From contig JBAYIQ010000003.1 in the NCBI GenBank assembly GCA_041665545.1, forward strand, positions 3,222 through 67,221: 64,000 nt of DNA, written 5' to 3'. Position 1 is the first letter of the stretch. Every line of letters begins with the position of its first letter. Shown piece by piece: positions 10,233-57,068 of the stretch. The notes under the pieces are model-generated. The model searched no databases. It was not told where the DNA came from and saw nothing but the letters and a program-made list of their open reading frames with translations. The position numbers were made by a program, and so were the translations under genes. The stretch is from Patescibacteria group bacterium (GTDB lineage Bacteria > Patescibacteriota > Patescibacteriia > UBA1558 > GWA2-36-10).

Positions 10233-10269
10233 ATATTGACATTAGGGCTAATTTTAGCCAATTTATATA

Positions 10270-10298: not shown

Positions 10299-10361
10299 TT
10301 TATAGAATTAATTGATTTAAAGCAAGTATTATTAGCTGAAATACTGATTAGAAAAGTGATT

Positions 10362-24910: not shown

Positions 24911-24919
24911 ATATAAATT

Positions 24920-25558: not shown

Positions 25559-25562
25559 AATA

Positions 25563-26429: not shown

Positions 26430-27685
26430 TGTATTGCCAGAGATGTCTTTATCCAGCTAATCATCCCTTAAATATTGTCTTTGATGACGAAGGTGTTTGC
26501 AGTGGCTGTCGCGTACATGAAGAAAAAGATCAACTTGATTGGGACGCCAAAGCTAAAGATTTAGAAAAGATATTAGTTCAATATAGAAGTAAGACAGGTA
26601 AAAGTTATGATTGTATAATTCCGGTTAGTGGGGCTAGGGATTCTTATTTTATTGTTTATACCATAAAAAATGTTTATAAAATGAATCCTTTATTGGTAAC
26701 TTATAATAAACAATATAATACCAGTACTGGTATTCGAAATTTGGCTTATCTTAAAACTTTGTTAGGTTGTGATGTACTCATGCTCACAGTTTCACCAGCT
26801 AAAGTAAAAAAGATTACCAGAGTAACAATTAAAAAATTAGGTAGTATTTATTGGCATTGTCTGGCTGGTCAAACAGTTTTTCCTGTTCAGACAGCTGTGC
26901 GCCTAAAAATACCCTTAATTATTTGGGGAGCTCATCAGGGCATGGAACAAGTGGGTATGTTTTCTCACTTGGATAAAGTTGAAATGACTCGTAAATATCG
27001 TAAGGAGCATGATTTAATGGGCCTTGAGGCAGAGGATTTAATTGGCGAAGAAGGAATCACGTCTGATGATATTTTACCCTTTATTTATCCACATGATAAA
27101 GAAATAGAGAGAGTTGGTGTTAGGGGAATTTATTTAAATAATTACATACGTTGGGATTCAAAACAACAGCATGAAAAAATGATTAAGCTTTATAATTACG
27201 AAACTACAAAACAGCAAAGGACTTTTGATACATATAATGATGTTGATTGTTTTAATTATTCAGATTTACACGATTATATTAAATTTTTAAAATGGGGTTA
27301 TGGTAAGGTGACTGACCATGCTTCTAGGGAAATCAGATTAAAAAGATTAACGCGGGAGGAGGGAATTGATTTGGTTAGACAATATCAAAATAAAAAATAT
27401 AACCCTCGTCATTTTAAAATGTTTCTTGCTTGGGTGGGAATGAAAGAGTTTGATTTTTGGCAGCATATTAATAAAAAGCGCGATTTAAATATTTGGGGTA
27501 AAGATAAAAATGGCAAATGGATTTTAATTGATTCGATTTTAAATCACGTTAAAGATGGGGGTGTTAAAAAGGTGAAGCTTGGTAAGATTGATAATTGCTA
27601 TTTTAAAGTTACACCTTCACGCAGTCATTCCAGCAGGGAAAATGATTATATTTTAATTGGACGTGGCTATGTTGATAAAAAATAA
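26426..27685 (+). CDS. N-acetyl sugar amidotransferase (second PseA/WbuX-like paralog)
   Basis: 419 aa. N-terminal CQRC...CSGC zinc-ribbon-like region and PP-loop IPVSGARDS. Paralog of 23798-24910. Confidence 0.55.
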   Translation: MMYCQRCLYPANHPLNIVFDDEGVCSGCRVHEEKDQLDWDAKAKDLEKILVQYRSKTGKSYDCIIPVSGARDSYFIVYTIKNVYKMNPLLVTYNKQYNTSTGIRNLAYLKTLLGCDVLMLTVSPAKVKKITRVTIKKLGSIYWHCLAGQTVFPVQTAVRLKIPLIIWGAHQGMEQVGMFSHLDKVEMTRKYRKEHDLMGLEAEDLIGEEGITSDDILPFIYPHDKEIERVGVRGIYLNNYIRWDSKQQHEKMIKLYNYETTKQQRTFDTYNDVDCFNYSDLHDYIKFLKWGYGKVTDHASREIRLKRLTREEGIDLVRQYQNKKYNPRHFKMFLAWVGMKEFDFWQHINKKRDLNIWGKDKNGKWILIDSILNHVKDGGVKKVKLGKIDNCYFKVTPSRSHSSRENDYILIGRGYVDKK

Positions 27686-27699: not shown

Positions 27700-28245
27700 A
27701 TGCAAGAAAAAAAAGGATACTTAATAAAGGGGCAAAACTTAGCTTTACGTAAACTATTATTAACTGATGTTAATAAGGTTTATTTATCTTGGCTGAATGA
27801 TAAAAGCATCCAAAAATATACGCGACGTCGAGGTCAGAAAATGACTATGCTTGGTTTAAAAAAGTTTGTAAAGAGTATTGAAAAATCAAAAGATTGGCAT
27901 TTTGCTATAATTATTAAAGATAGCAAAAAGCACATTGGTAATGTTTTTTTAAACTTAGTTGATGATCTAAATAAAAGTGCTGATTTATCGATTATGATAG
28001 GTGATAAAAATGAATGGGGCAAAGGATATGCTGGTGAAGTGATTAAACTGGCTACGCAGTTTGCTTTTAAGGAGTTAAAGCTGCATCGATTATCGGCTGG
28101 TTCTCCTAATCCAGCTTTTAACACTGTAGTGAAAAAATTAGGATGGACGCTTGAGGGGAAAAGGAGGGACGCTTTCTTTTTTGAAAGAAAATTTATTGAT
28201 ATATCGTGTTGGTCAATTTTAAAAAATGAGTGGAAAAATAAATAA
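27700..28245 (+). CDS. GNAT family N-acetyltransferase (PseH/RimL-like)
   Basis: 181 aa. GNAT fold motifs FAIIIKDSKKHIGNVFLNLVD...GKGYAGEVIKLATQFAFKELKLHRL. Confidence 0.6.
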   Translation: MQEKKGYLIKGQNLALRKLLLTDVNKVYLSWLNDKSIQKYTRRRGQKMTMLGLKKFVKSIEKSKDWHFAIIIKDSKKHIGNVFLNLVDDLNKSADLSIMIGDKNEWGKGYAGEVIKLATQFAFKELKLHRLSAGSPNPAFNTVVKKLGWTLEGKRRDAFFFERKFIDISCWSILKNEWKNK

Positions 28246-29272
28246 TATTAAAAATATGTTCAAAAAAAATTCAACATTTATTATTGCGGAAGCGGGTATA
28301 AATCACAACGGTGATTTTGCAACAGCTAAAAAATTGATTATTGAAGCAAAAAAATGCGGAGCTGATGCCATAAAGTTTCAGTCTTTTAAGGCCGATGAGC
28401 TTATTATCGAAAAAGCCCAGAAGGCTAAGCATGTTAAGGGTGAAAAAAGTTTTTTTGATATGTTAAAAAGTTGGGAATTAACCGCCAATGATTATGTAAA
28501 ATTAGCGGCTATTGCTAAAAAAGAGGGGATTATCTTTTTTGCTTCCGTTTTTGGAAGACAGTCTTTGGCTTTAATGAAAAAGGTTGGCGCACCACTTTTT
28601 AAAATTGCTTCTTGTGATTTAAATAATCATTTTTTACTTAAAGAAGTGGCTAAAACTAAAAAACCAGTGATTATTTCAACTGGCATGGGGAGTGCTGAAG
28701 AAATAAAGCAGGCCATAAAAATATTGGCCAAAGGCACACGAGAATTGGGTATTTTACACTGTATTTCGCTTTATCCACCACAAGCAGAAGAATTAAACCT
28801 CCAAAGAATTTCAATTTTAAAAAAGATGTTTCCCAAGCATGTTATTGGCTATTCTGACCATACTCTAGATATTTTTACTTCATCCGCTACTATTCTTTTG
28901 GGAGCTAAAATAATTGAAAAGCATTTTACCTTGGATAAGCATATGCCCGGCCCAGATCAGCCAAGTTCGGCCGATCCAAAAGAATTTAAAAAAATGGTAG
29001 AACAAATTAGATTTTTAGAAAAGGCCATTCAGGAAAAAGAAATAAAAATTAATCCTGGAGCTCGAGAAAAAGAAATGAAGAAGGCCTTTCGACGTAGTTT
29101 GGTAGCCAATGAATTTATTGCCAAAGGAACAGTGATAAGCGAAAAAATGTTAGCAGTAAAGCGACCAGGCACAGGTATTCCTTCTTCAGAGATGGGTAAA
29201 TTGTTGGGCAAAAAAGCTAAAAATAATTTAGAAAAAAATACCATAATTAGTTATTCAGACATAACTCGATGA
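28226..29272 (+). CDS. neuB: N-acetylneuraminate synthase family (NeuB/PseI/LegI-like nonulosonic acid synthase)
   Basis: 348 aa. N-terminus FIIAEAGINHNGDFATAKKLIIEAKKCGADAIKFQSF is the hallmark NeuB TIM-barrel start. C-terminal SAF/antifreeze-like domain present. Confidence 0.75.
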   Translation: MSGKINNIKNMFKKNSTFIIAEAGINHNGDFATAKKLIIEAKKCGADAIKFQSFKADELIIEKAQKAKHVKGEKSFFDMLKSWELTANDYVKLAAIAKKEGIIFFASVFGRQSLALMKKVGAPLFKIASCDLNNHFLLKEVAKTKKPVIISTGMGSAEEIKQAIKILAKGTRELGILHCISLYPPQAEELNLQRISILKKMFPKHVIGYSDHTLDIFTSSATILLGAKIIEKHFTLDKHMPGPDQPSSADPKEFKKMVEQIRFLEKAIQEKEIKINPGAREKEMKKAFRRSLVANEFIAKGTVISEKMLAVKRPGTGIPSSEMGKLLGKKAKNNLEKNTIISYSDITR

Positions 29273-30246
29273 TTAATATTATAGGAAAAATTAATAAAGA
29301 TAATTATCGCGAATTCACTAATTCAGATTTTTTCGGCTATGAGGTATTTTTAGCATCGGAAGAGGATTTTCATTATTTGCCAGACATGATATCAAAGTTG
29401 AATATTGTTTCTGTTCATCAGCCAAGTCGTAATTTTAATTTATGTAATGAGGGGCAGCAAGGAGAAGGCTCTTTCCGGTTATTAGAGCGGCTACTTTCAA
29501 TACTTGATAATAATAACTTCAAAGGGGTTCTCGTTGTACATGGAGCTTATTTTGATGAGCTTAGTTCGCAGCGAGATAAACATTTGGAGATTATGGCTAA
29601 GAGAATAGACATCTTGTCAGAGAATTTTGCTAATATTAAAATTTCTCTGGAGAATGACGTGTGGTTTTTAAACCAGATAAAAAAGCGTCGGGCACTTTTA
29701 GCTGAACCCAAAGACTTTTTTGATTTAAGAGAAAAAATGACTAGCCATCTTTACATTACTCTTGATTTTGAGCATATGTGGATTTCTTCTATTTTTTCAT
29801 CATTTTTTAAAGAAAATGAATCTTTTTGTGTGCAGGTCAATGACACAAGTGATTTGAATAAACCGGAAGTTATTTTAGCTAAAAAAACTTGGTTTACTTT
29901 TATTGAAAATAATAAAAATAATCTAGAGAAATTAGTGTCCAAAAATATCAAGGAATATCATGAATTGCAATCATCAATTGTTAATTTTCACCTTAATGGC
30001 TCAAATATGTTTAACTACTGGTTTGATGAAAAAATATTTATCCCTTATCTTGGTGAACATTTGTGTATTCAAGAAGAGGATGATAATATAAATTATAATC
30101 TTATTAGGGAAAATTTAGATAAATTAACCAAGCAGAAAGATATTAATATAGTTTTGGAAATTTGGCCACGGGAAAAATCTAGGTATGTAGTAGAATTGAA
30201 AAAATCTGGTAACTTGGCTCGAGAAATATTTAAAAACATTAAATAA
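29269..30246 (+). CDS. hypothetical protein, possibly xylose-isomerase-like TIM-barrel (sugar phosphate isomerase/epimerase)
   Basis: 325 aa. Scattered His/Glu/Asp motifs (VSVHQPS, VVHGAYFDE, LENDVW, TLDFEHMW, NFHLNG) are reminiscent of AP-endonuclease-2/xylose isomerase-like barrels. Weak. Confidence 0.25.
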   Translation: MINIIGKINKDNYREFTNSDFFGYEVFLASEEDFHYLPDMISKLNIVSVHQPSRNFNLCNEGQQGEGSFRLLERLLSILDNNNFKGVLVVHGAYFDELSSQRDKHLEIMAKRIDILSENFANIKISLENDVWFLNQIKKRRALLAEPKDFFDLREKMTSHLYITLDFEHMWISSIFSSFFKENESFCVQVNDTSDLNKPEVILAKKTWFTFIENNKNNLEKLVSKNIKEYHELQSSIVNFHLNGSNMFNYWFDEKIFIPYLGEHLCIQEEDDNINYNLIRENLDKLTKQKDINIVLEIWPREKSRYVVELKKSGNLAREIFKNIK

Positions 30247-30255
30247 ACTAAAAAA

Positions 30256-30939
30256 ATGAAAAATATTTGTATTATCCCAGCTCGGGGTGGATCCAAGAGA
30301 ATTCCCAAAAAAAATATAGTCGATTTTTATGGTAAGCCGATGTTGGCTTATACTATTGAGGCGGCTATTAAATCTGGTTTATTTGGTGAGAATATTTTTG
30401 TTAGTTCAGATTCAGAGGAGATCTTAGCAGTCGCCAATAACTATCCGGGCGTGCAGAGCATTTTGCGCCCAGCAGAAATTTCTGGAGACACAGCAACATT
30501 AGAGGAAGCAACCTTGCATTTGTTAAATAATGCTAGTGGTAATTTTGATTATTTGTGTATGCTTATGCCCAATTGTCCTTTACGCAACGAAGAGGATATA
30601 AAAATTTCTTTTGCTGAAATAACTAAAGCTGGTGCTACCTGTTCAATGAGTGTAGTTGATTATTATTGGCTCTACCCATTTTGGGCTTTACAAGAAAAAG
30701 AAACTGGCTTGGAATTATTTTTTGGTAAAGAATATCTGATTGATTCAAAAAAATTGCCCAAGGTTTATTGTCCTTCGGGGGCAGTTCGTTGGGTAAAGGT
30801 AGATAATTTCAAGGAGGAAAAAAAGTTTTATGGTAAGGGCTTGATGAAATATGTTATTCCTTTTGAAAGGAGTGTGGATATTGATAACTTTGAGGATTTA
30901 GAATTAGCTAAAAAGATTTATAAAATCGTAAATGCCTAG
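30256..30939 (+). CDS. neuA: acylneuraminate cytidylyltransferase family (CMP-nonulosonic acid synthetase, NeuA/PseF-like)
   Basis: 227 aa. N-terminus MKNICIIPARGGSKRIPKKNI is the canonical CMP-NeuAc/CMP-Kdo synthetase P-loop-like motif. Confidence 0.75.
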   Translation: MKNICIIPARGGSKRIPKKNIVDFYGKPMLAYTIEAAIKSGLFGENIFVSSDSEEILAVANNYPGVQSILRPAEISGDTATLEEATLHLLNNASGNFDYLCMLMPNCPLRNEEDIKISFAEITKAGATCSMSVVDYYWLYPFWALQEKETGLELFFGKEYLIDSKKLPKVYCPSGAVRWVKVDNFKEEKKFYGKGLMKYVIPFERSVDIDNFEDLELAKKIYKIVNA

Positions 30940-31741
30940 AAAAAAGAAAAACCTTAATATAATTTTTTTAGGGCGTAAAGTCGGAGCTGTTGAAGCAGTC
31001 CAGCATTTATTAAAATCCGGAGCCTCTGTAAAGTTAATCGTGGCTCCACGCGAAGAGGATTATAAGCCGACTTTAAGGGAATTAGCGCGCAAACATAAAA
31101 TCCCCTTTTTATATGATGACACAAAATTATATAATTTAATTAAAAATAGGAAGAGTTTGATTTTAGATACGGATTTAGTAATTTCTTATCTTTATTGGAG
31201 AAAAATAAAACAACCGTTATTTAATTTGCCAAAATTAGGTTGCATTAATTTTCATCCAGCACCTTTGCCAGACTACAAAGGACGAGCCGGTTATAATACG
31301 GCTATTTTGAATCAAAGTAAGTTTTTTGGAGCCTCGGCGCACTTTATTGATTCGGAAGAGTTTGATGTTGGTCCGATAATCAAAGTAAAAAGATTTCCAA
31401 TTAATTCTGAAAATGAAACCGCTTTTTCCCTAGAAGCTAAAACACAGACAGAATTATTGGCTCTTTTTAAAGAGGTGATGGCTGATTTCTTGGTTGGTAA
31501 AAAGATAAAAACTAAGCCAAATAAAGAAGGGATATACTGGAGTGGTAAATATTTAGAAGAAGCAAAAAAAATTAATCTAGATCAAGATTCGGTAGCTGAT
31601 ATTGATAGAAAAATTAGGGCTTTCTTTTTTCCGCCCTATAGCGGTGCTTGGGTAGAAATAGGTGGTAAGAAATTTACTCTTATAAATGATCAGATCTTAA
31701 ATTTAATTAAAAAAATAATTGATGATAGAAAAAATAAATAA
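30932..31741 (+). CDS. formyltransferase family protein (Fmt/PurN-like N-terminal domain)
   Basis: 269 aa. NFHPAPLPDYKGRAG matches the formyl-transferase H-x-S/A-x-L-P-x-x-R/K-G catalytic motif. Candidate sugar N-formyltransferase. Confidence 0.55.
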   Translation: MPRKKKNLNIIFLGRKVGAVEAVQHLLKSGASVKLIVAPREEDYKPTLRELARKHKIPFLYDDTKLYNLIKNRKSLILDTDLVISYLYWRKIKQPLFNLPKLGCINFHPAPLPDYKGRAGYNTAILNQSKFFGASAHFIDSEEFDVGPIIKVKRFPINSENETAFSLEAKTQTELLALFKEVMADFLVGKKIKTKPNKEGIYWSGKYLEEAKKINLDQDSVADIDRKIRAFFFPPYSGAWVEIGGKKFTLINDQILNLIKKIIDDRKNK

Positions 31742-32852
31742 GAAATACCCAATTGCTAAACCTTTTATTGGTATCGAGGAAAAACGGGAGGTTTTGAAGG
31801 TTTTAAATTCCGGTCATCTCAGTCTTGGTCCTTATTACAAAAAATTTGAGGCTAGTTTTGCTAAAAAAATTGGTGTCAAATATGCCTGCGCAGTTAATAG
31901 TGGCACAGCTGGTCTTCATTTAGCCATGCTTTGTGCTGGAATAAAGCCGGGTGATGAAGTAATTACTTCGCCGTTTTCTTTCGTGGCTTCGGCTAATTGT
32001 ATTTTATATGTTGGAGCAACACCTATTTTTGTTGATATTGATCCCATTACCTACAATATTGATCCTTTGGAAATTGAGAAAAAAATTACTCCAAAAACAA
32101 AAGCAATTTTGCCAGTGCATATTTTTGGACAATCCGCTAATATGACTGTGATTGTTAAAATTGCTAAAAAGTATAATTTAAAAATTATCGAAGATGCTTG
32201 TGAATCTTTGTTGGCAAGTCATAATGGTCAGCAAGTAGGTACTTTCGGCGAGTCAGCAGTTTTTGCCTTTTATCCAAATAAACAGATGACAACCGGTGAA
32301 GGTGGTATGCTGGTAACCAATAAAAAAGAAATATATGAGCTAGCTTGCAGTTTGCGTAATCAAGGTCGTGGTGAAAATATGCAGTGGCTTGATCATGAAA
32401 GACTTGGTTATAATTATCGCCTTGATGAAATGAGTGCAGCCATTGGCTTGGTGCAGCTTAAAAAAATCGATTGGTTAATAAAGGAAAGAAGAAAGATAGC
32501 TAATTTATATCAAAAATTTTTTTCTCCCCACCATGATTTAATTCAAATTCCGCAAATTAATAAAGGCAATACTCATACTTGGTTTGTTTACGCGCTAAAA
32601 ATAAAAGATAAAAAAATTAAGACAGATCAATTAATAGATAAATTAAGAAAAGAGGGTATTAGTTCAAAACCTTATTTGCCATCAATCCATTTATTTAAAT
32701 TTTATCAAGATAAATTTGGTTTTAAAGAGGGCGATTTTCCGATTTCAGAAGAAATCAGTCGATATTCTTTAGCTATGCCTTTCTACATTGGCTTAAAAGA
32801 AAAAGATGTTAAACATATTGTTAATAAATTGATTAAAATTTTAAAAAAATGA
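31719..32852 (+). CDS. DegT/DnrJ/EryC1/StrS family PLP-dependent sugar aminotransferase (PseC-like)
   Basis: 377 aa. DACESLLASHNGQQVGTFGESAVFAFYPNKQMTTGEGGMLVTN is typical of the DegT family. Confidence 0.7.
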   Translation: MMIEKINKKYPIAKPFIGIEEKREVLKVLNSGHLSLGPYYKKFEASFAKKIGVKYACAVNSGTAGLHLAMLCAGIKPGDEVITSPFSFVASANCILYVGATPIFVDIDPITYNIDPLEIEKKITPKTKAILPVHIFGQSANMTVIVKIAKKYNLKIIEDACESLLASHNGQQVGTFGESAVFAFYPNKQMTTGEGGMLVTNKKEIYELACSLRNQGRGENMQWLDHERLGYNYRLDEMSAAIGLVQLKKIDWLIKERRKIANLYQKFFSPHHDLIQIPQINKGNTHTWFVYALKIKDKKIKTDQLIDKLRKEGISSKPYLPSIHLFKFYQDKFGFKEGDFPISEEISRYSLAMPFYIGLKEKDVKHIVNKLIKILKK

Positions 32853-33838
32853 TCAAAGCTTTTAAGGGTAAAATTATTTTAGTAACTGGAGGAGCTGGTT
32901 CAATCGGCTCAGAATTAGTAGAGCAGCTTTTGCAGTATAAACCTAAACAAATTAGAGTACTTTCGCGTGATGAAAGTAAACAATATGAACTTTTAGAAAA
33001 ATTGAGTCATCCCAAAAATTTGCGCTTATTTATTGGTGATGTCAGGGATAAAGAGAGGCTTGATTTGGCTTTTAAAAATGTTGATATTGTAATTCACGCA
33101 GCAGCACTTAAACACGTACCTTTTTGTGAGTATAATCCATTTGAGACAATTAAAACCAATATTGTTGGCTCCCAAAACGTAATTGAGGCGGCTCTCAAAA
33201 ATAAAGTAAAAAAAGTTATTGCCATTTCCACCGATAAAGCGGCTAACCCAAATAATGTCATGGGAGTTTCAAAATTGATGATGGAAAAATTATTTGTTAA
33301 CGCTAATTATTATGGCTCAGCTGGGACTATATTTTCCTGCGTTAGATTTGGCAATGTTGCTTGGGCCAGGGGCTCAGTTTTACCTTTTTGGCAAAAACAA
33401 GCTGAGCGATTTAGTAAAATTAATGTCACTAATAGCGAGATGACTAGATTTTTGATGTCAAAAAAGGAAGCATGCAATTTGATTCTTAAAGCTATTGAGC
33501 TGGCTAGAGGTAAAGAGATTTTTGTTTTAAAAATGCCAGCTATTAAATTAGGTGATTTGGCTAATTTGTTTATTAAAAAATATTTTTTCAATAAAAACAT
33601 AAAAATTAAAAATGTCGGAAGTCGAGCAGGAGAAAAAATGCACGAGGAGTTGCTTAATGCCAGTGAGGATTTGAAAATTTTGTCTAACCACCGAATGTTT
33701 ATCATTTTACCAAAGGTAAAGATTTATGGTTTAGAAGAAAAGAAAATTAAAAATTATCCCGGCTTTAAAGAAGTAAAAGTTTGTACTTATTCTTCTAATC
33801 TCTATTTAGATAATAAAAAAATAAACGAAATAATTTAA
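32849..33838 (+). CDS. pseB: UDP-GlcNAc 4,6-dehydratase, short-form CapD/FlaA1/PseB-like
   Basis: 329 aa. KGKIILVTGGAGSIGSELVEQLL...IRVLSRDESKQ is the characteristic PseB/FlaA1 N-terminus (SDR Rossmann). Confidence 0.7.
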   Translation: MIKAFKGKIILVTGGAGSIGSELVEQLLQYKPKQIRVLSRDESKQYELLEKLSHPKNLRLFIGDVRDKERLDLAFKNVDIVIHAAALKHVPFCEYNPFETIKTNIVGSQNVIEAALKNKVKKVIAISTDKAANPNNVMGVSKLMMEKLFVNANYYGSAGTIFSCVRFGNVAWARGSVLPFWQKQAERFSKINVTNSEMTRFLMSKKEACNLILKAIELARGKEIFVLKMPAIKLGDLANLFIKKYFFNKNIKIKNVGSRAGEKMHEELLNASEDLKILSNHRMFIILPKVKIYGLEEKKIKNYPGFKEVKVCTYSSNLYLDNKKINEII

Positions 33839-33841
33839 TTT

Positions 33842-35146
33842 ATGAAAGAGCAGAAACTAGCACTGTTGGGAGGAGCTCCTATTTTAAAAAAACCTTTTGC
33901 TACTTATAATTCTTTGGGTGCGGAAGAAAAAAAAGCGGTGATAAAAGTTATGGACGAAAGAATTATTTCTGATTTTTTGGGTTCGGCTGGTGAAAAATTT
34001 TTGGGCGGGAAATATGTTAGAGAGTTTGAGGGTCGTATTTGTGATTTATTCAAGGTTAAACATGCGATAAGCTTTAATTCGGCTACCACGGCCCTACAAG
34101 GGGCAATGGGAGCTATTGGTATGGGCCCAGGAGACGAGGTTATTACCTCTCCTTATAGTATGTCGGCCACTCCATCGGCCATTTTATTAAACAATGCTAT
34201 TCCAGTTTTTGCCGATATTGATTGGAATAATTATTGTTTAGACCCAAAATCCATTGAAGCAAAAATTACCAAGAGAACAAAAGCCATTTTTTTGGTTAAT
34301 ATTTTTGGTGGTACAGGAAATTTTTCAAAAATATTAAGTTTGGCTAAAAAATATAAACTAAAAGTAGTGGAAGATAACGCCCAGGCAATTGGTGCTAAGT
34401 ATAAAAATAAGTTTTTAGGAACCATAGGAGATGCTGGGGTTTTTAGTTTTAATGTCCATAAAAATTTGCAGTGTGGTGAGGGTGGTGTACTAACGACCAA
34501 TAACGATAAAATAGCTTTTCGAGCACAACTTATTAGAAATCACGGAGAAGCAGTTTTAGACGATGATTATTATCGGAATAGAAAAATTTTTGAACCACTT
34601 ATTGGCAGTAACTATCGTTTAAGCGAGCTTCACGCGGCTGTAGCCATTGAGCAGTTAAAAAAAATTAAAGTTTTAAATGGTGCTCGAGTTAGTTTGGCTA
34701 ATTATTTGAACTCTCTTTTATCTAAGATAGATTGGCTAGAGCCAGTCAAGGTCACTACTCACAGTACTCATGTTTATTATTTTTATCCTTTTAAGATAAA
34801 TAATAAAGCAGGAATTAAAAGATCGACTTTTGTTAAAGCCATGGTTGCCGAGGGATTTTTAGTTAGAGAAGGCTACGTTAAGCCCCTTTATCTCCTACCA
34901 ATTTATCAAAAAAAGAAAATTTTTATTAATTCGCAATATCCTTTTGTTTCAAAAGATTTTAAAACAAACGTAAGTTATAATAAAGGAATTTGTCCTGTAG
35001 CTGAAAAATTATGGGAAGAAAATCTTTTAATAACTAGTATTTGCCATTACCCTAGAACAAAGAAAGATATTGATAATTTTTTTAAAGCTATATTAAAGAT
35101 TGATAAAAATCGTAAAGCCCTGGCCCTTTATGAAAAGCAGAAATAA
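33842..35146 (+). CDS. DegT/DnrJ/EryC1/StrS family aminotransferase (second paralog)
   Basis: 434 aa. DegT-family fold with N-terminal extension (GDEVITSPYSMSATPSAIL...). Exact activity (aminotransferase vs dehydratase) not resolvable by eye. Confidence 0.6.
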   Translation: MKEQKLALLGGAPILKKPFATYNSLGAEEKKAVIKVMDERIISDFLGSAGEKFLGGKYVREFEGRICDLFKVKHAISFNSATTALQGAMGAIGMGPGDEVITSPYSMSATPSAILLNNAIPVFADIDWNNYCLDPKSIEAKITKRTKAIFLVNIFGGTGNFSKILSLAKKYKLKVVEDNAQAIGAKYKNKFLGTIGDAGVFSFNVHKNLQCGEGGVLTTNNDKIAFRAQLIRNHGEAVLDDDYYRNRKIFEPLIGSNYRLSELHAAVAIEQLKKIKVLNGARVSLANYLNSLLSKIDWLEPVKVTTHSTHVYYFYPFKINNKAGIKRSTFVKAMVAEGFLVREGYVKPLYLLPIYQKKKIFINSQYPFVSKDFKTNVSYNKGICPVAEKLWEENLLITSICHYPRTKKDIDNFFKAILKIDKNRKALALYEKQK

Positions 35147-36038
35147 AAATTTATTGATAGTGGCGCATGACGCTGGAGGAGCTAATATTTTAGCGGCCTG
35201 GGTAGTCAAAAATTTTAAAAAATATAATTTTTTATTTTGTTTAGAAAATCCAGCTTTAAAAATTTTTCAGGATAAGAAAATAGTATTTAAAAATATTAAA
35301 TATAAAAATTTAAATTTCGTATGGGATAAAATTGATTTTATATTGACTGGTACAAGTTATCCGGCTGATTTAGAAAGATTGTTAATTGCTCAAGCAAAAA
35401 AGAAAAAGATTAAAAGTGCTTCTTTTATTGATCATTGGGTTAATTATCGTAAAAGATTTTTACCATTAGGCCATGAGGGGAAAGTACAAAATTTTCTTCC
35501 CGATGAAATTTGGGTAGGTGATAGATTTGCCTTAAAAATGGCTTTAGAAGAGGGCTTTACTAGAAATAAGCTTAAATTAATACCCAATCCTTATTTTCAG
35601 GAAGTAAGAAAAATTAAACAAAATATACAAAACAGTGGCAAAATTGCTCAAAGAAAAAAAATTCTTTTTCTGTCGTCAATTTTTTCGGAAAATAATTTTA
35701 ATGAGTTTGATTTTTTAGAGGAATTTTTAAAAATTTTAAAATCATCTGGTAAAAAAATAGAAATTACCATCAAGCTACACCCCAGTGAGAAAATTGGTAA
35801 ATATAATAAGTTGATTAAAAAATATCCAGAATTAAAGATAAATCAATCAAAAAGTCAAAATTTGGTCCAGGAAATAAATAAAGCGGATTTAGTTATTGGT
35901 CAAGAGACTATGGCACTAGTTGTGGCGATGTTATTGAGCAAGACGGCTCTAAATTATAAGCCCAACGGGCTTTCAGCCATTCCTTTTAGAAAGATAAAAA
36001 TAATAACTTCTTTAAGTAAAATAGAGAAATATTTATGA
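35100..36038 (+). CDS. hypothetical GT-B-like protein (possible PseG-like UDP-sugar hydrolase)
   Basis: 312 aa. Two Rossmann-like halves. N-terminal LLIVAHDAGGANILAAW sits where PseG/MurG-like proteins have a G-x-G-H motif. Its position in the nonulosonic acid pathway block suggests a PseG role. Weak. Confidence 0.25.
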   Translation: MIKIVKPWPFMKSRNKNLLIVAHDAGGANILAAWVVKNFKKYNFLFCLENPALKIFQDKKIVFKNIKYKNLNFVWDKIDFILTGTSYPADLERLLIAQAKKKKIKSASFIDHWVNYRKRFLPLGHEGKVQNFLPDEIWVGDRFALKMALEEGFTRNKLKLIPNPYFQEVRKIKQNIQNSGKIAQRKKILFLSSIFSENNFNEFDFLEEFLKILKSSGKKIEITIKLHPSEKIGKYNKLIKKYPELKINQSKSQNLVQEINKADLVIGQETMALVVAMLLSKTALNYKPNGLSAIPFRKIKIITSLSKIEKYL

Positions 36039-37033
36039 AAAAATTATACAAAGCAGCAGTTATTGGGTGCGGTAGAATTGGAGCATTGCCAGTTAGTTTA
36101 AAAAAAAGCAATCGTCCCAAAACTCACGCTGAGGCTTATCAGTTAAATAGTAAAATTCAACTGGCTGGTTTGGTTGATACCGATAAAAATAAATTAAAGT
36201 TGGTAAAAAAATTTTATCCGGGTGTGCCCATTTTTACCGATCCTATTGAGATGCTCGAAAAAATTAAACCAGACATTGTTTCTATTACTACTGCGCCAAA
36301 ATCTCATTCTAAGTTGATTTGTCTAGCAGCCAAAAGTGGTTGTCGACTTATTTTTTGTGAAAAGCCCATTTCTTTGTCAATAAATGAAGCGGAAGAGGCA
36401 GTTAAGTATTGTCAAAAGCGGGGTAGTAAATTATTAATTAATCATCATCGTCATTTTGATCCGCTTGTTAATAAATGGAAAAAGAAAATAGACGATGGTT
36501 TGATTGGGCCAATATATCAAGGAACCGCTTATTATCACAATGGTTTTTTTAACTATATGACCCATATGCTTGATTTAATGCGAATGGTTTTGGGTGAAGC
36601 TGATTCCGTTTGTGGTTGGTATAATAAAATTACTTCAAGTGAAGATAGTGATGTAAATATTGATGGTTGGATAAAATTTAAAAAAGGAACACTTGTTTCT
36701 ATTCATTCCTTGACTAAAGATTATGGTTTTTTTGACTTGGATTTATTGGGTGAAAAAGGCAGAGTAACTTTTAAGGCTTTTGGGTCGACAAAAATTGAAT
36801 ATCAGAAAAAGATAAAAAACAAATTTTATTCTGGCTATTATGATTTATCAGAACCCAAGAAAGAAGGAAAATTAAGAAGCCCAATTCAAATTTCAATAAA
36901 TCGGGCAGTTTCTGTTCTGGATGGAAAGTCAAAACAGATAAGCACGGGTCAGGATGCCATGGTAATTTTAAAAATTCTTTTAGCCTTTAAAAAAAGTGCG
37001 GATCTGGGAAATAAGGAGATTAAGTTAAAATAA
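36035..37033 (+). CDS. Gfo/Idh/MocA family NAD(P)-dependent oxidoreductase
   Basis: 332 aa. N-terminal Rossmann motif KAAVIGCGRIG and a GFO_IDH_MocA-type C-terminal domain. WbpB-like sugar 3-dehydrogenases belong to this family. Confidence 0.65.
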   Translation: MKKLYKAAVIGCGRIGALPVSLKKSNRPKTHAEAYQLNSKIQLAGLVDTDKNKLKLVKKFYPGVPIFTDPIEMLEKIKPDIVSITTAPKSHSKLICLAAKSGCRLIFCEKPISLSINEAEEAVKYCQKRGSKLLINHHRHFDPLVNKWKKKIDDGLIGPIYQGTAYYHNGFFNYMTHMLDLMRMVLGEADSVCGWYNKITSSEDSDVNIDGWIKFKKGTLVSIHSLTKDYGFFDLDLLGEKGRVTFKAFGSTKIEYQKKIKNKFYSGYYDLSEPKKEGKLRSPIQISINRAVSVLDGKSKQISTGQDAMVILKILLAFKKSADLGNKEIKLK

Positions 37034-40084: not shown

Positions 40085-40100
40085 AATTATATTAATATTT

Positions 40101-40958: not shown

Positions 40959-40962
40959 TTTT

Positions 40963-46653: not shown

Positions 46654-46654
46654 T

Positions 46655-48614: not shown

Positions 48615-48616
48615 CT

Positions 48617-49033: not shown

Positions 49034-49036
49034 GCC

Positions 49037-50722: not shown

Positions 50723-50724
50723 AT

Positions 50725-51939: not shown

Positions 51940-51973
51940 TATTTCAAAAAAATAATTTACCCCATTAGAGAAG

Positions 51974-52549: not shown

Positions 52550-52552
52550 GTT

Positions 52553-57067: not shown

Positions 57068-57068
57068 T

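What the first reader, a model, noticed from the sequence alone, without database searches (positions are those of the whole stretch)
27700..36038. Complete pseudaminic/legionaminic-type nonulosonic acid pathway with extra N-formyl and acetamidino tailoring
The block encodes, in one co-directional run, the six activities of the Pse pathway plus tailoring enzymes. These are a PseB-like inverting 4,6-dehydratase (32849), two DegT aminotransferases (31719 and 33842), a PseH-like GNAT (27700), a PseG-like GT-B hydrolase candidate (35100), a NeuB-family synthase (28226) and a CMP-transferase (30256). The extras are a formyltransferase (30932) and a Gfo/Idh/MocA oxidoreductase (36035). The likely product is a CMP-activated 5,7-diamino-3,5,7,9-tetradeoxy-nonulosonate carrying unusual N-acyl groups (formyl and/or acetamidino). 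Sialic-acid-like sugars on a CPR-type cell surface or pilus would be notable for host interaction and immune mimicry.
Basis: partly seen in the sequence, partly recalled or inferred. Interest (0 to 1): 0.65.

Follow-up and report, generated by a model that had tools for sequence, protein, structure and literature searches.

The report
Non-canonical sialic-acid-like sugar gene cluster
A Patescibacteria (CPR) genome carries a real gene cluster for a sialic-acid-like nine-carbon surface sugar, but it is not the textbook pseudaminic acid pathway: it lacks the usual sugar-release enzyme and has a rare, uncharacterised enzyme coupled to the synthase.

Summary

- No enzyme reaches a curated Pse or Leg equivalog cut-off.
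- The synthase is NeuB/LegI-like, not PseI-like: 354.6 against 268.9 bits. Genuine PseI proteins score 469-505 against 308-325.
- The dehydratase has Met in place of the catalytic Tyr.
- The "PseH" GNAT and the "PseG" candidate belong instead to a module Gfo/Idh/MocA, 434-aa DegT, GNAT and a 300-aa GT-B protein. This module recurs in 72-74 of 80 genomes and usually coexists with a true PseG.
- By analogy with ElaA, a C8 oxidase of CMP-legionaminic acid, the module probably adds a third N-acylated amino group. This is inferred.
- The acetamidino genes (WbuX-HisH-HisF-WbuX) lie upstream, outside the stated range.
Its family is rare: 54 representatives among 1.84 billion proteins. It follows NeuB in 10 of 10 related CPR-type loci and is fused to NeuB in two proteins.
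- No PseG or NeuC is found in the window or in those loci.

Most likely product: a CMP-activated 7-N-formyl, acetamidino-bearing di- or tri-amino nonulosonate of unresolved stereochemistry.

The parts
21997..23787 (+). ABC exporter with fused membrane and ATPase domains; candidate flippase or exporter of the glycan
   Evidence: Pfam ABC_tran 112 bits and ABC_membrane 30 bits. Homologues at 44-48% identity sit in related CPR clusters.
23798..24910 (+). N-acetyl sugar amidotransferase, copy 1 (WbuX family); acetamidino formation
   Evidence: TIGR03573 320.2 bits against a cut-off of 203.2.
24920..25558 (+). HisH-type glutaminase subunit for the amidotransferases
   Evidence: TIGR01855 215.6 bits; Pfam GATase.
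25563..26429 (+). HisF2/WbuZ-type cyclase-like subunit for acetamidino modification
   Evidence: TIGR03572 WbuZ 262.3 bits and NF038364 AglZ/HisF2 245.3 bits, both below their cut-offs of 299.7 and 310. Pfam His_biosynth 194 bits.
26426..27685 (+). N-acetyl sugar amidotransferase, copy 2 (WbuX family)
   Evidence: TIGR03573 330.1 bits against a cut-off of 203.2. The same WbuX-HisH-HisF-WbuX order occurs in Leptospira, Chlorobiaceae and other loci, with 50-69% identity for this copy.
27700..28245 (+). GNAT N-acetyltransferase; not PseH, probably the acetyltransferase of the Gfo-DegT2 module
   Evidence: Acetyltransf_3 66 bits. PseH model 20.5 bits against a cut-off of 93.1. Homologues lie between DegT2 and ORF9 in many loci; GNAT is present in 45 of 80. 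It is 52% identical to a GNAT lying about 0.7 kb upstream of Gfo-DegT2 in a Magasanikbacteria locus (L012).
28226..29272 (+). Nonulosonic acid synthase (NeuB+SAF), NeuB/LegI-like and not PseI-like
   Evidence: Pfam NeuB 263 and SAF 47.5 bits. NeuB_NnaB 354.6 against PseI 268.9 bits. Genuine PseI controls score 505/469 against 325/308. Best PDB hit is N. meningitidis NeuB at 190 bits.
29269..30246 (+).
   Evidence: AP_endonuc_2 31.5 bits against a cut-off of 31.1. AF2 pLDDT 86.8. Foldseek finds D-tagatose 3-epimerase-like and Endo IV structures at E about 1e-8. It lies immediately downstream of NeuB in 10 of 10 related loci. TIM-NeuB fusion proteins P0136 and P0137 exist. The family has 54 representatives among 1.84e9 proteins.
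30256..30939 (+). CMP-nonulosonate cytidylyltransferase
   Evidence: CTP_transf_3 86 bits. PseF model 168.7 bits against a cut-off of 205.7; a genuine PseF scores 339.6.
30932..31741 (+). Sugar N-formyltransferase; probably formylates the 4-amino group, which becomes N7 of the nonulosonate
   Evidence: Formyl_trans_N 58.6 bits. Best PDB hits are the GDP-perosamine N-formyltransferase 5vys and the formyltransferase 4nv1. N106/H108/D145 motif present. In sister loci an NeuD/PglD-type acetyltransferase lies within the same NeuB-TIM-CMPT-DegT stretch.
31719..32852 (+). DegT-family sugar 4-aminotransferase (DegT1)
   Evidence: DegT 404 bits. PseC 322.1 and LegC 288.5 bits, both below cut-off. Best PDB hit is perosamine synthetase at 253 bits. 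PLP lysine K188 present.
32849..33838 (+). UDP-GlcNAc 4,6-dehydratase of the short PseB/CapD type, Met variant of the triad
   Evidence: Polysacc_synt_2 336 bits. PseB model 331.8 bits against a cut-off of 407.75. PDB hits: Pen 260 and FlaA1/PseB 252 bits. The motif is STDKAANPNNVMGVSK, whereas 33 of 33 PseB homologues in other loci carry Y.
33842..35146 (+). Second DegT aminotransferase (DegT2, 434 aa), core of the conserved accessory module
   Evidence: DegT 294 bits. Best PDB hit is the 8-amino-Kdo transaminase KdnA at 180 bits. K207 present. Co-occurs with ORF9 in 74 of 80 loci at 38-49% identity.
35100..36038 (+). ORF9: 300-aa GT-B-fold protein of an uncharacterised family (NCBI start 35130); not PseG
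   Evidence: No PseG hit. Weak hits only: polyST PF07388 22.9, TIGR04396 29.4 and BFO_1060 GT 26 bits. 677 homologues. AF2 pLDDT 93.8. Foldseek finds UDP-GlcNAc 2-epimerases at E 1e-9 and a polysialyltransferase at 2e-8. Coexists with PseG in 46-49 of 80 loci.
36035..37033 (+). Gfo/Idh/MocA NAD(P)-dependent sugar oxidoreductase, partner of DegT2
   Evidence: GFO_IDH_MocA 67.4 bits. Best PDB hit is 3ezy at 52 bits, the same nearest structure reported for the CMP-Leg C8 oxidase ElaA (PMC13656337). Directly adjacent to DegT2 in 58 of 71 loci.
37043..38587 (+). 514-aa GT-B glycosyltransferase; candidate nonulosonate transferase
   Evidence: Capsule_synth 24.8 bits. BFO_1060 family GT 41.7 bits. 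BFO_1060 is the homologue, in another T. forsythia strain, of the transferases genetically shown to add Pse/Leg derivatives (PMC5420450). Homologues occur in all related CPR clusters.
38615..41781 (+). B12-radical SAM enzyme, FkbM methyltransferase and GT2 glycosyltransferase (tailoring and assembly genes of the same operon)
   Evidence: Pfam B12-binding plus Radical_SAM, Methyltransf_21 and Glycos_transf_2. The same trio is seen at 48-51% identity in Patescibacteria locus L036.
41795..43159 (-). Initiating phosphoglycosyltransferase (Bac_transf, PglC/WbaP-like)
   Evidence: Bac_transf 222.7 bits.

Best explanation
The block is the precursor-synthesis half of a ~38 kb low-GC surface-glycan island in a Patescibacteria genome. 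It makes a CMP-activated nonulosonic acid by a non-canonical route assembled from three sub-systems.

(A) A CPR-type core. A Met-variant UDP-GlcNAc 4,6-dehydratase (32849) makes the 4-keto-6-deoxy sugar. DegT1 (31719) aminates C4. The formyltransferase (30932) formylates that amine, which will become N7. The sugar is then freed or epimerised by a step with no known enzyme here. A NeuB/LegI-like synthase (28226) condenses it with PEP, and the cytidylyltransferase (30256) activates it. The NeuB-coupled TIM barrel (29269) is the best candidate for supplying the aldose substrate to the synthase.

(B) A widely conserved accessory module: Gfo oxidoreductase (36035), DegT2 (33842), GNAT (27700) and the GT-B protein ORF9 (35100). 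By analogy with ElaA, which oxidises C8 of CMP-legionaminic acid, this module most likely oxidises a hydroxyl of the (CMP-)nonulosonate, transaminates it and N-acetylates it, giving a triamino sugar. ORF9 is a CMP-sugar-binding partner or transferase.

(C) The upstream WbuX-HisH-HisF-WbuX cassette (23798-27685) converts one or two N-acetyl groups to acetamidino groups.

Shown: gene content, family assignments, intact catalytic motifs, failure of the Pse/Leg equivalog tests, and the conservation and fusion data. Inferred: substrate order, the position of formylation, the C8 amination, the role of the TIM barrel and the stereochemistry.
For: Family assignments and intact motifs.

Calibration of the synthase, CMP-transferase and dehydratase models against genuine Pse enzymes.

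DegT1 and the formyltransferase resemble the perosamine synthase and perosamine N-formyltransferase pair.

Sister CPR operons carry the same genes, with an NeuD/PglD-type acetyltransferase and no formyltransferase in the same NeuB-TIM-CMPT-DegT stretch.

TIM barrel:
- NeuB-TIM adjacency in 10 of 10 loci.
- TIM-NeuB fusion proteins.
- A TIM fusion to an LmbE-type N-acetyl-sugar deacetylase.
- No PseG or NeuC in the window or in those loci.
- Invariant H50, H91, E128, D166, H169, H241 and E297 across 22 members.

Accessory module:
- Co-occurrence with ORF9 is 74/80 for DegT2, 72/80 for Gfo, 61/80 for NeuB and 45/80 for GNAT.
- Gfo-DegT2 are adjacent in 58 of 71 loci, and a CMP-transferase lies directly upstream of Gfo in 33 of 72.
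- A methyltransferase or a FemAB-like gene replaces the GNAT in some loci.
- ElaA precedent: PMC13656337. A natural 8-amino nonulosonate exists: PMC3210612.
- ORF9 shows weak similarity to the CMP-binding domain of nonulosonate transferases (PMC5420450).

Both WbuX copies pass the curated cut-off.
Against: - No biochemical data exist for any of these proteins.
- A distant TIM homologue (27% identity, L098) lies next to an Epimerase_2 (NeuC-family) gene in an otherwise complete Leg-like cluster. The TIM family is therefore not simply a NeuC replacement everywhere.
- Fold search cannot separate sugar-epimerase-like from Endo IV-like chemistry. The profile comparison with Endo IV was not significant.
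- ORF9's best structural matches are UDP-GlcNAc 2-epimerases, so it could itself be the hydrolysing 2-epimerase.
- The Gfo oxidoreductase also gives a weak hit to archaeal UDP-GlcNAc 3-dehydrogenase, 66 bits against a cut-off of 450. This fits a separate 2,3-diamino sugar pathway.
- Met- and Tyr-type dehydratases both occur with NeuB-TIM, so the stereochemistry is unresolved.
- ElaA itself could not be compared directly.
Confidence: 0.55

Rival explanations
1. One reading: a canonical PseB-PseC-PseH-PseG-PseI-PseF pseudaminic acid pathway, with formyl and acetamidino tailoring plus an extra oxidoreductase.
For: The best-scoring curated models for the dehydratase, DegT1 and the CMP-transferase are PseB, PseC and PseF. 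H. pylori PseB is the second-best PDB hit of the dehydratase. ORF9 has a GT-B fold, as PseG does.
Against: All six Pse models are below cut-off, while genuine Pse enzymes from comparison loci pass them. The synthase scores 86 bits higher on NeuB_NnaB than on PseI, the reverse of genuine PseI. There is no PseG similarity by HMM or tblastn. ORF9 coexists with real PseG in 46-49 of 80 loci. The GNAT scores 20.5 bits on PseH. The dehydratase has Met where all 33 PseB homologues have Tyr.
Confidence: 0.08
2. Two separate sugars are made. The core genes make a 5,7-diamino nonulosonate. Gfo, DegT2, GNAT and ORF9, plus one WbuX, form a WbpB-WbpE-WbpD-WbpI(-WbpG)-like pathway. That pathway converts UDP-GlcNAc into a 2,3-diacetamido (or 3-acetamidino) 2,3-dideoxy-manno sugar that is a second residue of the glycan.
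For: ORF9's top structural matches are UDP-sugar 2-epimerases, including the UDP-2,3-diacetamido-2,3-dideoxyglucuronate 2-epimerase 8sxv. Gfo hits archaeal UDP-GlcNAc 3-dehydrogenase at 66 bits. DegT2 matches WbpE at 140 bits. WbuX, HisH and HisF are the same families used for the acetamidino group of ManNAc3NAmA in P. aeruginosa O5 (my knowledge of that pathway, not tested here).
Against: The module sits immediately after the NulO synthase in most of 80 genomes, often in flagellin-glycosylation islands whose only sugar pathway is Pse. A CMP-transferase, not a UDP-sugar enzyme, lies directly upstream of Gfo in 33 of 72 loci. ORF9 gives no Epimerase_2 hit, and its sequence similarity is to CMP-binding sialyltransferase-like domains. 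The 3-dehydrogenase hit is far below its cut-off of 450. There is no UDP-GlcNAc 6-dehydrogenase in the block.
Confidence: 0.2
3. A legionaminic-type pathway in which ORF9 is the missing hydrolysing 2-epimerase (a divergent LegG/NeuC). The TIM barrel would then be an accessory epimerase that changes the configuration of the precursor or has an unrelated role.
For: Foldseek places ORF9 closest to UDP-GlcNAc 2-epimerases, including the N. meningitidis enzyme 6vlb/6vlc. The synthase is NeuB/LegI-like. Sister loci use an NeuD/PglD-type acetyltransferase, as Leg and bacillosamine pathways do. A distant TIM homologue coexists with a NeuC-family gene.
Against: ORF9 is absent within 10 kb of NeuB-TIM in six of ten related loci (L086-L091), which also lack NeuC and PseG. 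In other phyla ORF9 is tied to Gfo and DegT2 and coexists with PseG. Identity to 2-epimerases is only 11-15%, and by my reading the catalytic acid residues of that family are not obviously conserved.
Confidence: 0.15

Closest known systems
UDP-linked legionaminic acid pathway (PglF/SpsM, PglE/SpsC, PglD/SpsD, LegG/SpsG, LegI/SpsE, LegF/SpsF; B. subtilis sps genes, PMC7439481)
   Same: It starts from a short or PglF-like UDP-GlcNAc 4,6-dehydratase with a T-x9-M-x3-K triad, followed by a DegT 4-aminotransferase. The synthase is NeuB/LegI-like and is followed by a CMP-transferase. Sister CPR loci use an NeuD/PglD-type N-acetyltransferase.
   Different: There is no NeuC/LegG or SpsG/PseG-type hydrolase. 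A formyltransferase is present where sister loci have the acetyltransferase. A TIM-barrel gene is translationally coupled to the synthase. All curated Leg models are below cut-off (LegB 81/475, LegC 288/420, NeuB_NnaB 355/400). The stereochemistry is unknown.
Pseudaminic acid pathway PseBCHGIF (H. pylori / C. jejuni)
   Same: Same reaction logic and the same protein superfamilies for dehydratase, aminotransferase, synthase and cytidylyltransferase. PseB, PseC and PseF are the top-scoring curated models for three of the enzymes.
   Different: None of the six equivalog cut-offs is met. There is no PseG. The GNAT is not PseH. The synthase is not PseI-like. The dehydratase has Met where PseB has Tyr141.
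ElaB-ElaA-ElaC 8-epimerisation cassette of A. baumannii KL49 / V. vulnificus (PMC13656337)
   Same: A CMP-transferase gene is followed by a ~320-330 aa Gfo/Idh/MocA oxidoreductase inside a NulO cluster. ElaA is proposed to oxidise C8-OH of CMP-Leg5,7Ac2. ElaA and the window's Gfo share the same nearest solved structure (3ezy).
   Different: Here the oxidoreductase is followed by a PLP aminotransferase and an N-acyl or N-methyl transferase instead of an SDR reductase. This implies amination rather than epimerisation. Direct sequence comparison with ElaA was not possible.
WbuX/PseA/PtmG-type amidotransferases with HisH2/HisF2 (acetamidino sugars such as Leg5Am7Ac, Pse5Ac7Am, ManNAc3NAmA)
   Same: Both WbuX copies pass TIGR03573. 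HisH and HisF2/WbuZ homologues lie between them.
   Different: Two amidotransferases share one HisH/HisF pair in a fixed four-gene cassette. Which N-acetyl groups they convert is unknown.
Tannerella forsythia Pse/Leg-derivative transferases (Tanf_01245 / TFUB4_00887 / BFO_1060; PMC5420450)
   Same: The 514-aa GT (41.7 bits) and ORF9 (26 bits) match the conserved C-terminal region of this family, which those authors propose binds CMP. ORF9 has an invariant H-P dipeptide (H217, P218).
   Different: Scores are far below the family cut-off of 200. ORF9 is only 300 aa and lacks the N-terminal acceptor domain of those enzymes.
Xylose-isomerase-like TIM barrels (D-tagatose 3-epimerase family) and endonuclease IV
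   Same: Predicted fold (Foldseek E 4e-9 and 9e-9). Invariant Glu, Asp and His residues lie at or next to the C-terminal ends of the predicted beta-strands, as in the metal sites of both groups.
   Different: There is no significant sequence similarity to any solved member. Three extra invariant histidines go beyond the E-D-H-E set of the epimerases. The family is found next to or fused with NulO synthases, a context not described for this fold in the papers I could search.

Membership tests
Pseudaminic acid pathway | PseB: inverting UDP-GlcNAc 4,6-dehydratase (TIGR03589 equivalog, cut-off 407.75; catalytic Tyr141 in FlaA1) | tested here: not met
   Score is 331.8 bits. The motif has Met at the Tyr position. 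Genuine PseB homologues from L086 and L094 score 449 and 416.6.
Pseudaminic acid pathway | PseC aminotransferase (TIGR03588, cut-off 423.5) | tested here: not met
   DegT1 scores 322.1 bits and DegT2 212 bits. H. pylori PseC (2fn6) is only a mid-ranking PDB hit at 176 bits.
Pseudaminic acid pathway | PseH GNAT N-acetyltransferase (TIGR03585, cut-off 93.1) | tested here: not met
   Score is 20.5 bits. A PseH from canonical locus L029 is not detected by BLAST with the window's GNAT.
Pseudaminic acid pathway | PseG UDP-sugar hydrolase (GT28-like, Glyco_tran_28_C) | tested here: not met
   No Pfam or NCBIfam hit on any ORF of at least 100 aa in the window that was scanned. tblastn with three PseG sequences finds nothing. 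No PseG appears among the 50 best listed structural matches of ORF9.
Pseudaminic acid pathway | PseI synthase (TIGR03586, cut-off 340.25; PseI score above NeuB score) | tested here: not met
   PseI 268.9 against NeuB_NnaB 354.6 bits. Controls score 505/325 and 469/308.
Pseudaminic acid pathway | PseF cytidylyltransferase (TIGR03584, cut-off 205.7) | tested here: not met
   Score is 168.7 bits. The control PseF scores 339.6.
Legionaminic acid pathway | LegB/PglF-type retaining 4,6-dehydratase | tested here: inconclusive
   LegB model 81 bits against a cut-off of 475. PglF PDB hit at 168 bits. The triad is the Met variant shared by PglF, SpsM and CapE (PMC7439481). Retention or inversion cannot be read from the sequence.
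Legionaminic acid pathway | LegG/NeuC hydrolysing UDP-sugar 2-epimerase (Epimerase_2) | tested here: not met
   No Epimerase_2 hit in the window. ORF9 resembles the fold only distantly: TM about 0.65 and 11-15% identity.
Legionaminic acid pathway | LegI/NeuB synthase (TIGR03569, cut-off 399.65) | tested here: not met
   Score is 354.6 bits, the best model but below cut-off.
NeuB family nonulosonate synthases (Pfam PF03102 plus SAF) | NeuB TIM-barrel domain plus C-terminal SAF domain; metal-binding histidines | tested here: met
   NeuB 263.2 bits and SAF 47.5 bits. H212 and H233 lie in the DH and KH motifs. DAHP synthase models score only about 26 bits.
WbuX N-acetyl sugar amidotransferases (TIGR03573) | Score above the curated cut-off of 203.2; adjacent HisH/HisF2 partners | tested here: met
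   Scores are 320.2 and 330.1 bits. HisH scores 215.6 bits. WbuZ scores 262.3 bits, below its own cut-off of 299.7.
Sugar N-formyltransferases (Formyl_trans_N) | N-terminal formyltransferase domain with the Asn-His-Asp catalytic triad | tested here: met
   PF00551 58.6 bits. N106, H108 and D145 lie in INFHPAPLP...DVGPII. The nearest solved structures are 4-amino-4,6-dideoxyhexose N-formyltransferases. Substrate not tested.
Ela-type CMP-nonulosonate C8 oxidoreductase (ElaA) | Gfo/Idh/MocA fold, about 323 aa, next to a NulO CMP-transferase, acts on CMP-Leg C8-OH | tested here: inconclusive
   Fold, size and nearest structure (3ezy) agree (PMC13656337). CMP-transferase adjacency is seen in 33 of 72 related loci but not in the window itself.
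Xylose-isomerase-like TIM barrel (AP_endonuc_2) | Pfam gathering score of 31.1; (beta/alpha)8 fold with metal ligands at strand ends | tested here: met
   Score is 31.5 bits. The AF2 model and Foldseek matches agree. Invariant H/E/D set. Which subgroup it belongs to (epimerase, isomerase or phosphoesterase) is not resolved.

The most novel reading that the evidence does not exclude
The NeuB-coupled TIM barrel (29269-30246) is a new, non-homologous enzyme for the step that delivers the free manno-type 2-acetamido sugar to nonulosonate synthases. It would release the sugar from its nucleotide and/or epimerise it at C2, replacing NeuC/LegG/PseG in CPR bacteria. Together with the Gfo-DegT2-GNAT module, the cluster would then make a previously unassigned 5,7,8-triamino nonulosonate carrying formyl and acetamidino groups.
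Probability: 0.35. Interest if true: 0.78.

Novelty: new variant of a known kind. Interest (0 to 1): 0.62.

Why it matters
Nonulosonic acids are the bacterial counterparts of sialic acids and decorate flagella, pili, S-layers and capsules. Their pathways are thought to be well understood: six enzymes, with a NeuC- or PseG-type enzyme to free the sugar.

This cluster shows three things.

1. A CPR bacterium with a reduced genome invests about 38 kb in such a glycan, right next to its type IV pilus genes. I found no paper in the searched library that links nonulosonic acids with CPR bacteria.
2. A rare enzyme family is genetically welded to the synthase, by adjacency in 10 of 10 loci and by natural fusions, in clusters that lack the canonical release enzyme. 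This makes a missing-enzyme question directly testable in vitro.
3. A four-gene module found in at least 72 genomes of many phyla is a strong candidate for the unknown route to amino-substituted nonulosonates, such as the 8-amino sugar of Tenacibaculum maritimum.

Both leads are cheap to test with recombinant proteins.

Tried and rejected
- Sequence searches of ORF9 and the TIM barrel against PDB chains gave nothing. This held for the single sequences and for the TIM profile.
It did line up H91/E128/D166/H169 with H109/E145/D179/H182. I treat this as a lead only.
- I first thought that the Met-type dehydratase tracks the NeuB-TIM clusters and would indicate a retaining, Leg-type route. Loci L094 and L095 pair NeuB-TIM with a genuine Tyr-type PseB, so I dropped this as a discriminator.
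- I considered that Gfo plus the TIM barrel act together as an oxidise-then-eliminate system, like YcjS/YcjR, DgpA/DgpBC or LgdA/LgdB, to release the sugar from UDP. I rejected this on co-occurrence. TIM is absent from all 80 ORF9/Gfo loci, and Gfo is absent from six of ten TIM loci.
- I considered a dehydratase-free route (Gfo-DegT2-GNAT-ORF9-NeuB) to a 9-hydroxy 5,7-diacetamido nonulosonate. The single synthase in canonical loci is a genuine PseI, which argues against it.
- I considered the TIM barrel as a NulO-9-phosphate phosphatase. This is incompatible with a 6-deoxy precursor in this window.
- The ElaA supplement with sequences is not held.
- Literature searches linking CPR with nonulosonic acids, or xylose-isomerase-like proteins with nonulosonic acid clusters, found nothing relevant.

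Full report
**1. What is in the sequence**

The window comes from a JGI metagenome contig (3300037810, Ga0376277_0001130, 116 kb). NCBI names two of the window's own proteins 'Patescibacteria group bacterium' (WCV69_02430 and WCV69_02460).

A low-GC island (about 30-35% GC, flanks 36-43%) spans roughly 4000-43200. From 10158 to 41781 every major ORF (the 100-aa ORFs not nested inside a longer one) is on the + strand. Genes overlap by 4-47 nt or are separated by 3-9 nt, which is typical of one operon.

Pfam confirms each superfamily:
- GNAT (27700)
- NeuB+SAF (28226)
- CTP_transf_3 (30256)
- Formyl_trans_N (30932)
- DegT (31719 and 33842)
- Polysacc_synt_2 SDR (32849)
- GFO_IDH_MocA (36035)

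Catalytic motifs are intact by my reading: formyltransferase N106/H108/D145, PLP lysines K188 and K207, synthase H212/H233, and the oxidoreductase EKP motif.

- An ORF at 29269-30246, between the synthase and the CMP-transferase, was not mentioned. It is a xylose-isomerase-like TIM barrel (AP_endonuc_2, 31.5 bits).
- The acetamidino genes are upstream, at 23798-27685: WbuX, HisH, HisF2/WbuZ, WbuX. Both WbuX copies are well above the curated cut-off.
- Nothing resembling PseG or NeuC exists among the scanned ORFs of the window (nearly all ORFs of 100 aa or more), nor by tblastn.

**2. It is a nonulosonate pathway, but not the Pse pathway**

With NCBIfam, every Pse or Leg equivalog model scores below its curated cut-off:

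| Model | Score (bits) | Cut-off |
|---|---|---|
| PseB | 331.8 | 407.75 |
| PseC | 322.1 | 423.5 |
| PseH | 20.5 | 93.1 |
| PseI | 268.9 | 340.25 |
| PseF | 168.7 | 205.7 |
| LegB | 81 | 475 |
| LegC | 288.5 | 420 |
| NeuB_NnaB | 354.6 | 399.65 |

I calibrated these numbers on genuine Pse enzymes from operons that contain PseG and PseH.
- PseI proteins score 505 and 469 on PseI against 325 and 308 on NeuB_NnaB.
- A genuine PseF scores 339.6.
- Tyr-type PseB proteins score 449 and 416.6.

The window's synthase shows the opposite preference, by 86 bits. The same holds for the synthases of all related CPR loci tested: 354.3/268.1, 357.6/276.7 and 362.6/270.0.

The dehydratase is closest to B. 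thuringiensis Pen and H. pylori PseB among solved structures (260 and 252 bits). Its triad reads STDKAANPNNVMGVSK, that is T-x9-M-x3-K. All 33 PseB homologues collected from other genomes have Tyr at that position.

The Met variant is known and functional in CapE, WbjB, PglF and B. subtilis SpsM. SpsM is complemented by the retaining dehydratase PglF but not by pseB, and it starts a UDP-linked legionaminic acid pathway (PMC7439481). The enzyme is nevertheless not an orthodox PseB.

I could not settle retention versus inversion. Related CPR operons pair the same NeuB-TIM unit either with a Met-type dehydratase (L086, L088) or with a genuine Tyr-type PseB (L094, L095).

**3. N-acyl chemistry**

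DegT1's best solved relatives are GDP-perosamine synthases (253 bits). The formyltransferase's best relatives are the GDP-perosamine N-formyltransferase 5vys and the formyltransferase 4nv1. These are enzymes that aminate and formylate C4 of 4,6-dideoxyhexoses.

In sister CPR operons the window's formyltransferase is absent and an NeuD/PglD-family acetyltransferase sits in the same NeuB-TIM-CMPT-DegT stretch (195.6 and 184.3 bits, above the cut-off of 160.8). I therefore infer that the formyl group goes onto the 4-amino group. That group becomes N7 of the nonulosonate.

N-formyl nonulosonates are known, for example the CMP-linked formylated NulO and its formyltransferase-containing cluster in Ca. 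Kuenenia (bioRxiv 10.64898/2026.04.20.719630).

The WbuX-HisH-HisF-WbuX cassette recurs in the same order in Leptospira, Chlorobiaceae and other loci (L013, L040, L049). Two amidotransferases suggest two acetamidino groups, or two different substrates. This is inference.

**4. The 'PseG candidate' and the 'extras' are one conserved module**

ORF9 (35100/35130-36038) has 677 homologues of about 300 aa. Those that carry a source name are called hypothetical, or in one case 'polysialyltransferase family glycosyltransferase'. I fetched 80 genomic loci from many phyla and annotated them with the window's proteins.

Co-occurrence with the ORF9 homologue within 10 kb:

| Partner | Loci out of 80 |
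|---|---|
| DegT2-type aminotransferase | 74 |
| Gfo-type oxidoreductase | 72 |
| NulO synthase | 61 |
| GNAT | 45 |

Gfo and DegT2 are directly adjacent in 58 of 71 loci. The usual order in Proteobacteria is PseB, PseC, PseF, PseG, PseH, PseI, Gfo, DegT2, (GNAT or a methyltransferase), ORF9.

A recognisable PseG is present in 46-49 of the 80 loci. ORF9 is therefore not a PseG substitute in those genomes.

The window's GNAT detects the module GNATs at 20-52% identity but not the PseH of a canonical operon.

An AlphaFold model of ORF9 (pLDDT 93.8) is a GT-B-type two-Rossmann fold.
- Foldseek ranks UDP-GlcNAc 2-epimerases first (E 1e-9, TM about 0.65, 11-15% identity).
- A polysialyltransferase (E 2e-8) and TagF follow. 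No PseG is in the top 50.

At sequence level the only hits are weak ones: polysialyltransferase (PF07388, 22.9 bits), TIGR04396, and the BFO_1060 family (26 bits). BFO_1060 is the homologue, in another T. forsythia strain, of the transferases genetically shown to add Pse and Leg derivatives. The conserved C-terminal region of that family carries D/E-D/E-G and HP motifs proposed to bind CMP (PMC5420450). The ORF9 family has invariant H217-P218 and an HDAGGA motif.

**5. What the module probably does**

In A. baumannii KL49 and V. vulnificus, ElaB is a CMP-transferase. ElaA is a 323-aa Gfo/Idh/MocA enzyme proposed to oxidise C8-OH of CMP-Leg5,7Ac2. ElaC is an SDR that reduces the ketone to give the 8-epimer (PMC13656337).

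Several observations parallel this.
- ElaA's nearest solved structure, TM_0414 (3ezy), is also the top PDB hit of the window's Gfo.
- In 33 of 72 loci a CMP-transferase gene lies directly upstream of Gfo.
- The gene after Gfo is a PLP aminotransferase rather than a reductase.
- The gene after that is an N-acetyltransferase, a methyltransferase, or in some CPR loci a nearby FemAB-like gene.
- DegT2's best solved relative is KdnA, which aminates the oxidised C8 of Kdo. The margin over perosamine synthase is small, however.

The simplest reading is oxidation of a hydroxyl of the (CMP-)nonulosonate, then transamination, then N-acylation. An 8-amino-3,5,7,8,9-pentadeoxynonulosonic acid is known from the O-polysaccharide of Flexibacter (Tenacibaculum) maritimus (PMC3210612). 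I know of no assigned genes for it.

This step is inferred. The main rival is a WbpB/WbpE/WbpD/WbpI-like route to a 2,3-diacetamido sugar. That rival is supported by ORF9's 2-epimerase-like fold and by a 66-bit hit of Gfo to archaeal UDP-GlcNAc 3-dehydrogenase. It fits poorly with the CMP-transferase adjacency and with the module's position in flagellin islands that encode only Pse.

**6. The overlooked TIM barrel**

The family is rare.
- The word-indexed search found 7 proteins with the single sequence and 13 with the profile.
- The exhaustive HMMER search of 1.84 billion representatives found 54 at E up to 1e-3 and 16 at E up to 1e-30.

In all ten related loci with context, the TIM gene directly follows the synthase, usually overlapping it, and a CMP-transferase follows within one or two genes wherever the contig extends that far (L086-L091, L094, L095; L092 and L093 are short).

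Three architectures occur:
- a minimal NeuB-TIM-CMPT trio without dehydratase or aminotransferase (L087, L089-L091);
- NeuB-TIM-acetyltransferase-CMPT-methyltransferase-DegT-dehydratase (L086, L088);
- the full set with Gfo, DegT2 and ORF9, as in the window (L094, L095).

None of the eight longer loci (L086-L091, L094, L095) has a Glyco_tran_28_C or Epimerase_2 gene among the genes within 10 kb that gave a Pfam hit. Some ORFs there had no Pfam hit at all.

Two cluster representatives are natural fusions of the TIM domain to a NeuB+SAF synthase.
- P0136 residues 2-316 match the window's TIM at 30% identity (E 4e-35).
- P0136 residues 373-715 match the window's synthase at 33% identity (E 5e-57).
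- Precomputed Pfam agrees.

A third protein, P0144, fuses the TIM domain to an LmbE/PIG-L-type N-acetyl-sugar deacetylase.

The AlphaFold model (pLDDT 86.8) matches D-tagatose 3-epimerase-like proteins (E 4e-9) and endonuclease IV (E 9e-9) about equally. Across 22 members, down to 21% identity, the invariant residues are K7, E25, H50, H91, E128, D166, H169, H241, G262, L265 and E297. Seven of these (H50, H91, E128, D166, H169, H241, E297) are candidate metal ligands.

By their strand-end positions these correspond to the E-D-H-E metal site common to the superfamily plus three extra histidines. Those histidines recall the additional metal sites of Endo IV or xylose isomerase. This is my mapping. 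The profile comparison with Endo IV was not significant.

The trio NeuB-TIM-CMPT mirrors NeuB-NeuC-NeuA. The six-gene version mirrors the Leg pathway, with TIM where LegG would be. I therefore think the TIM protein most likely supplies the free aldose substrate to the synthase, by nucleotide release and/or C2 epimerisation.

There is a counter-example. A 27%-identical homologue sits beside an Epimerase_2 gene in an otherwise complete Leg-like cluster (L098). The family may therefore be an accessory epimerase elsewhere. I put this hypothesis at about 0.35.

**7. Surroundings**

Downstream of the block are:
- a 514-aa GT with similarity to nonulosonate transferases;
- a B12-radical SAM enzyme, an FkbM methyltransferase and a GT2;
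- a PglC-like initiating transferase (minus strand) and a Wzy_C/TPR protein.

Upstream are GT4 glycosyltransferases, a second B12-radical SAM enzyme, two more Wzy_C/TPR proteins and the ABC exporter.

Immediately after the island come che-like genes and a type IV pilus locus: PilB, PilC, pilins and PilM. The Wzy_C domain is shared by PglL/PilO-type O-oligosaccharyltransferases (my knowledge). Pilin or other protein O-glycosylation is therefore a reasonable target, but this is untested.

**8. Verdict**

It is wrong about the pathway identity and about three gene assignments, and it missed the most unusual gene.

I file this as a new variant of a known kind. Interest is moderate to high because two uncharacterised, well-delimited enzyme sets become directly testable. 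No paper in the searchable library links CPR bacteria with nonulosonic acids, or this TIM fold with nonulosonate clusters. That is absence of evidence within that library only.

Noticed in passing
window 4000-43200: The whole glycan island has about 30-35% GC, against 43% upstream and 36-42% downstream. GC skew is positive throughout. This suggests a horizontally acquired or compositionally distinct surface-glycan island.
   Followed up: partly
window 4795-7029, 7044-9050, 43244-45406: Three large Wzy_C (O-antigen ligase/PglL-like) membrane proteins flank the island, two with C-terminal TPR repeats. In an organism without LPS these could be protein O-oligosaccharyltransferases or polymerases. 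The same Wzy_C/TPR gene ends related CPR clusters L094 and L095.
   Followed up: partly
window 45511-59758: Directly downstream of the island lies a che-like set (MCP, CheW, CheA-like), followed by a type IV pilus locus. The pilus locus has PilB, PilC, three N-methyl pilin-like genes (one of them a 1037-aa Laminin_G_3 pilin) and PilM. This is a possible glycosylation target.
   Followed up: no
window 16610-17923: A 437-aa ORF with a weak RtcB (RNA ligase) hit of 35 bits sits inside the glycosyltransferase run. It is followed by two ORFs (17913-18725, 18722-19660) with no Pfam or NCBIfam hit and by a CDP-alcohol phosphatidyltransferase-like gene. This is odd content for a glycan operon.
   Followed up: no
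window 11886-13325 and 38615-40084: Two B12-binding radical SAM enzymes lie in the island. Related CPR clusters also carry one to three of them. They may C-methylate or otherwise modify the sugars.
   Followed up: no
window 263-3967: A 1234-aa ORF in the higher-GC flank has no Pfam hit at all.
   Followed up: no
window 9042-10232 (-) and 10158-10652 (+): A GIY-YIG nuclease-domain ORF overlaps the end of the only minus-strand GT4 gene in the upstream part of the island. It may be a mobile-element remnant at a recombination junction.
   Followed up: no
L003 1-1635, L060 1579-3606, L098 1-1757: Fusion proteins of about 675 aa recur, joining a CMP-transferase to a class-III aminotransferase. In L060 the fusion lies next to an aldo/keto reductase, and in L003 and L060 next to PseG. 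This may be another uncharacterised nonulosonate-modifying system, reminiscent of the EpaA CTP-transferase/aldo-keto reductase fusion (PMC12053666).
   Followed up: no
L097 10001-12196: The TIM-NeuB fusion gene P0137 lies on a 485 kb contig. Its neighbours include an S_layer_C protein, UbiA, a Glycos_transf_4 and a CBS-containing dehydratase, a context that looks archaeal. The family may therefore cross domains.
   Followed up: partly
L098 10001-12564: A distant TIM homologue (P0138) is convergent with an unusually long (522-aa) Epimerase_2 gene in a Leg-like cluster. This is the one case where the TIM family coexists with a NeuC-type gene.
   Followed up: partly
L087/L089/L090/L091, about 5400-7100 (minus strand): The minimal NeuB-TIM-CMPT loci carry a conserved pair: a 302-aa radical SAM protein and a 203-210-aa SDR that lacks the N-terminal Rossmann part. 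This pair could be an alternative route to a deoxy or epimerised sugar.
   Followed up: no
L013, L040, L049 (WbuX2 homologues): The second amidotransferase is 50-69% identical between this CPR genome and Leptospira, Chlorobiaceae and Gammaproteobacteria loci. That is much higher than for neighbouring genes and suggests recent horizontal transfer of the four-gene acetamidino cassette.
   Followed up: no
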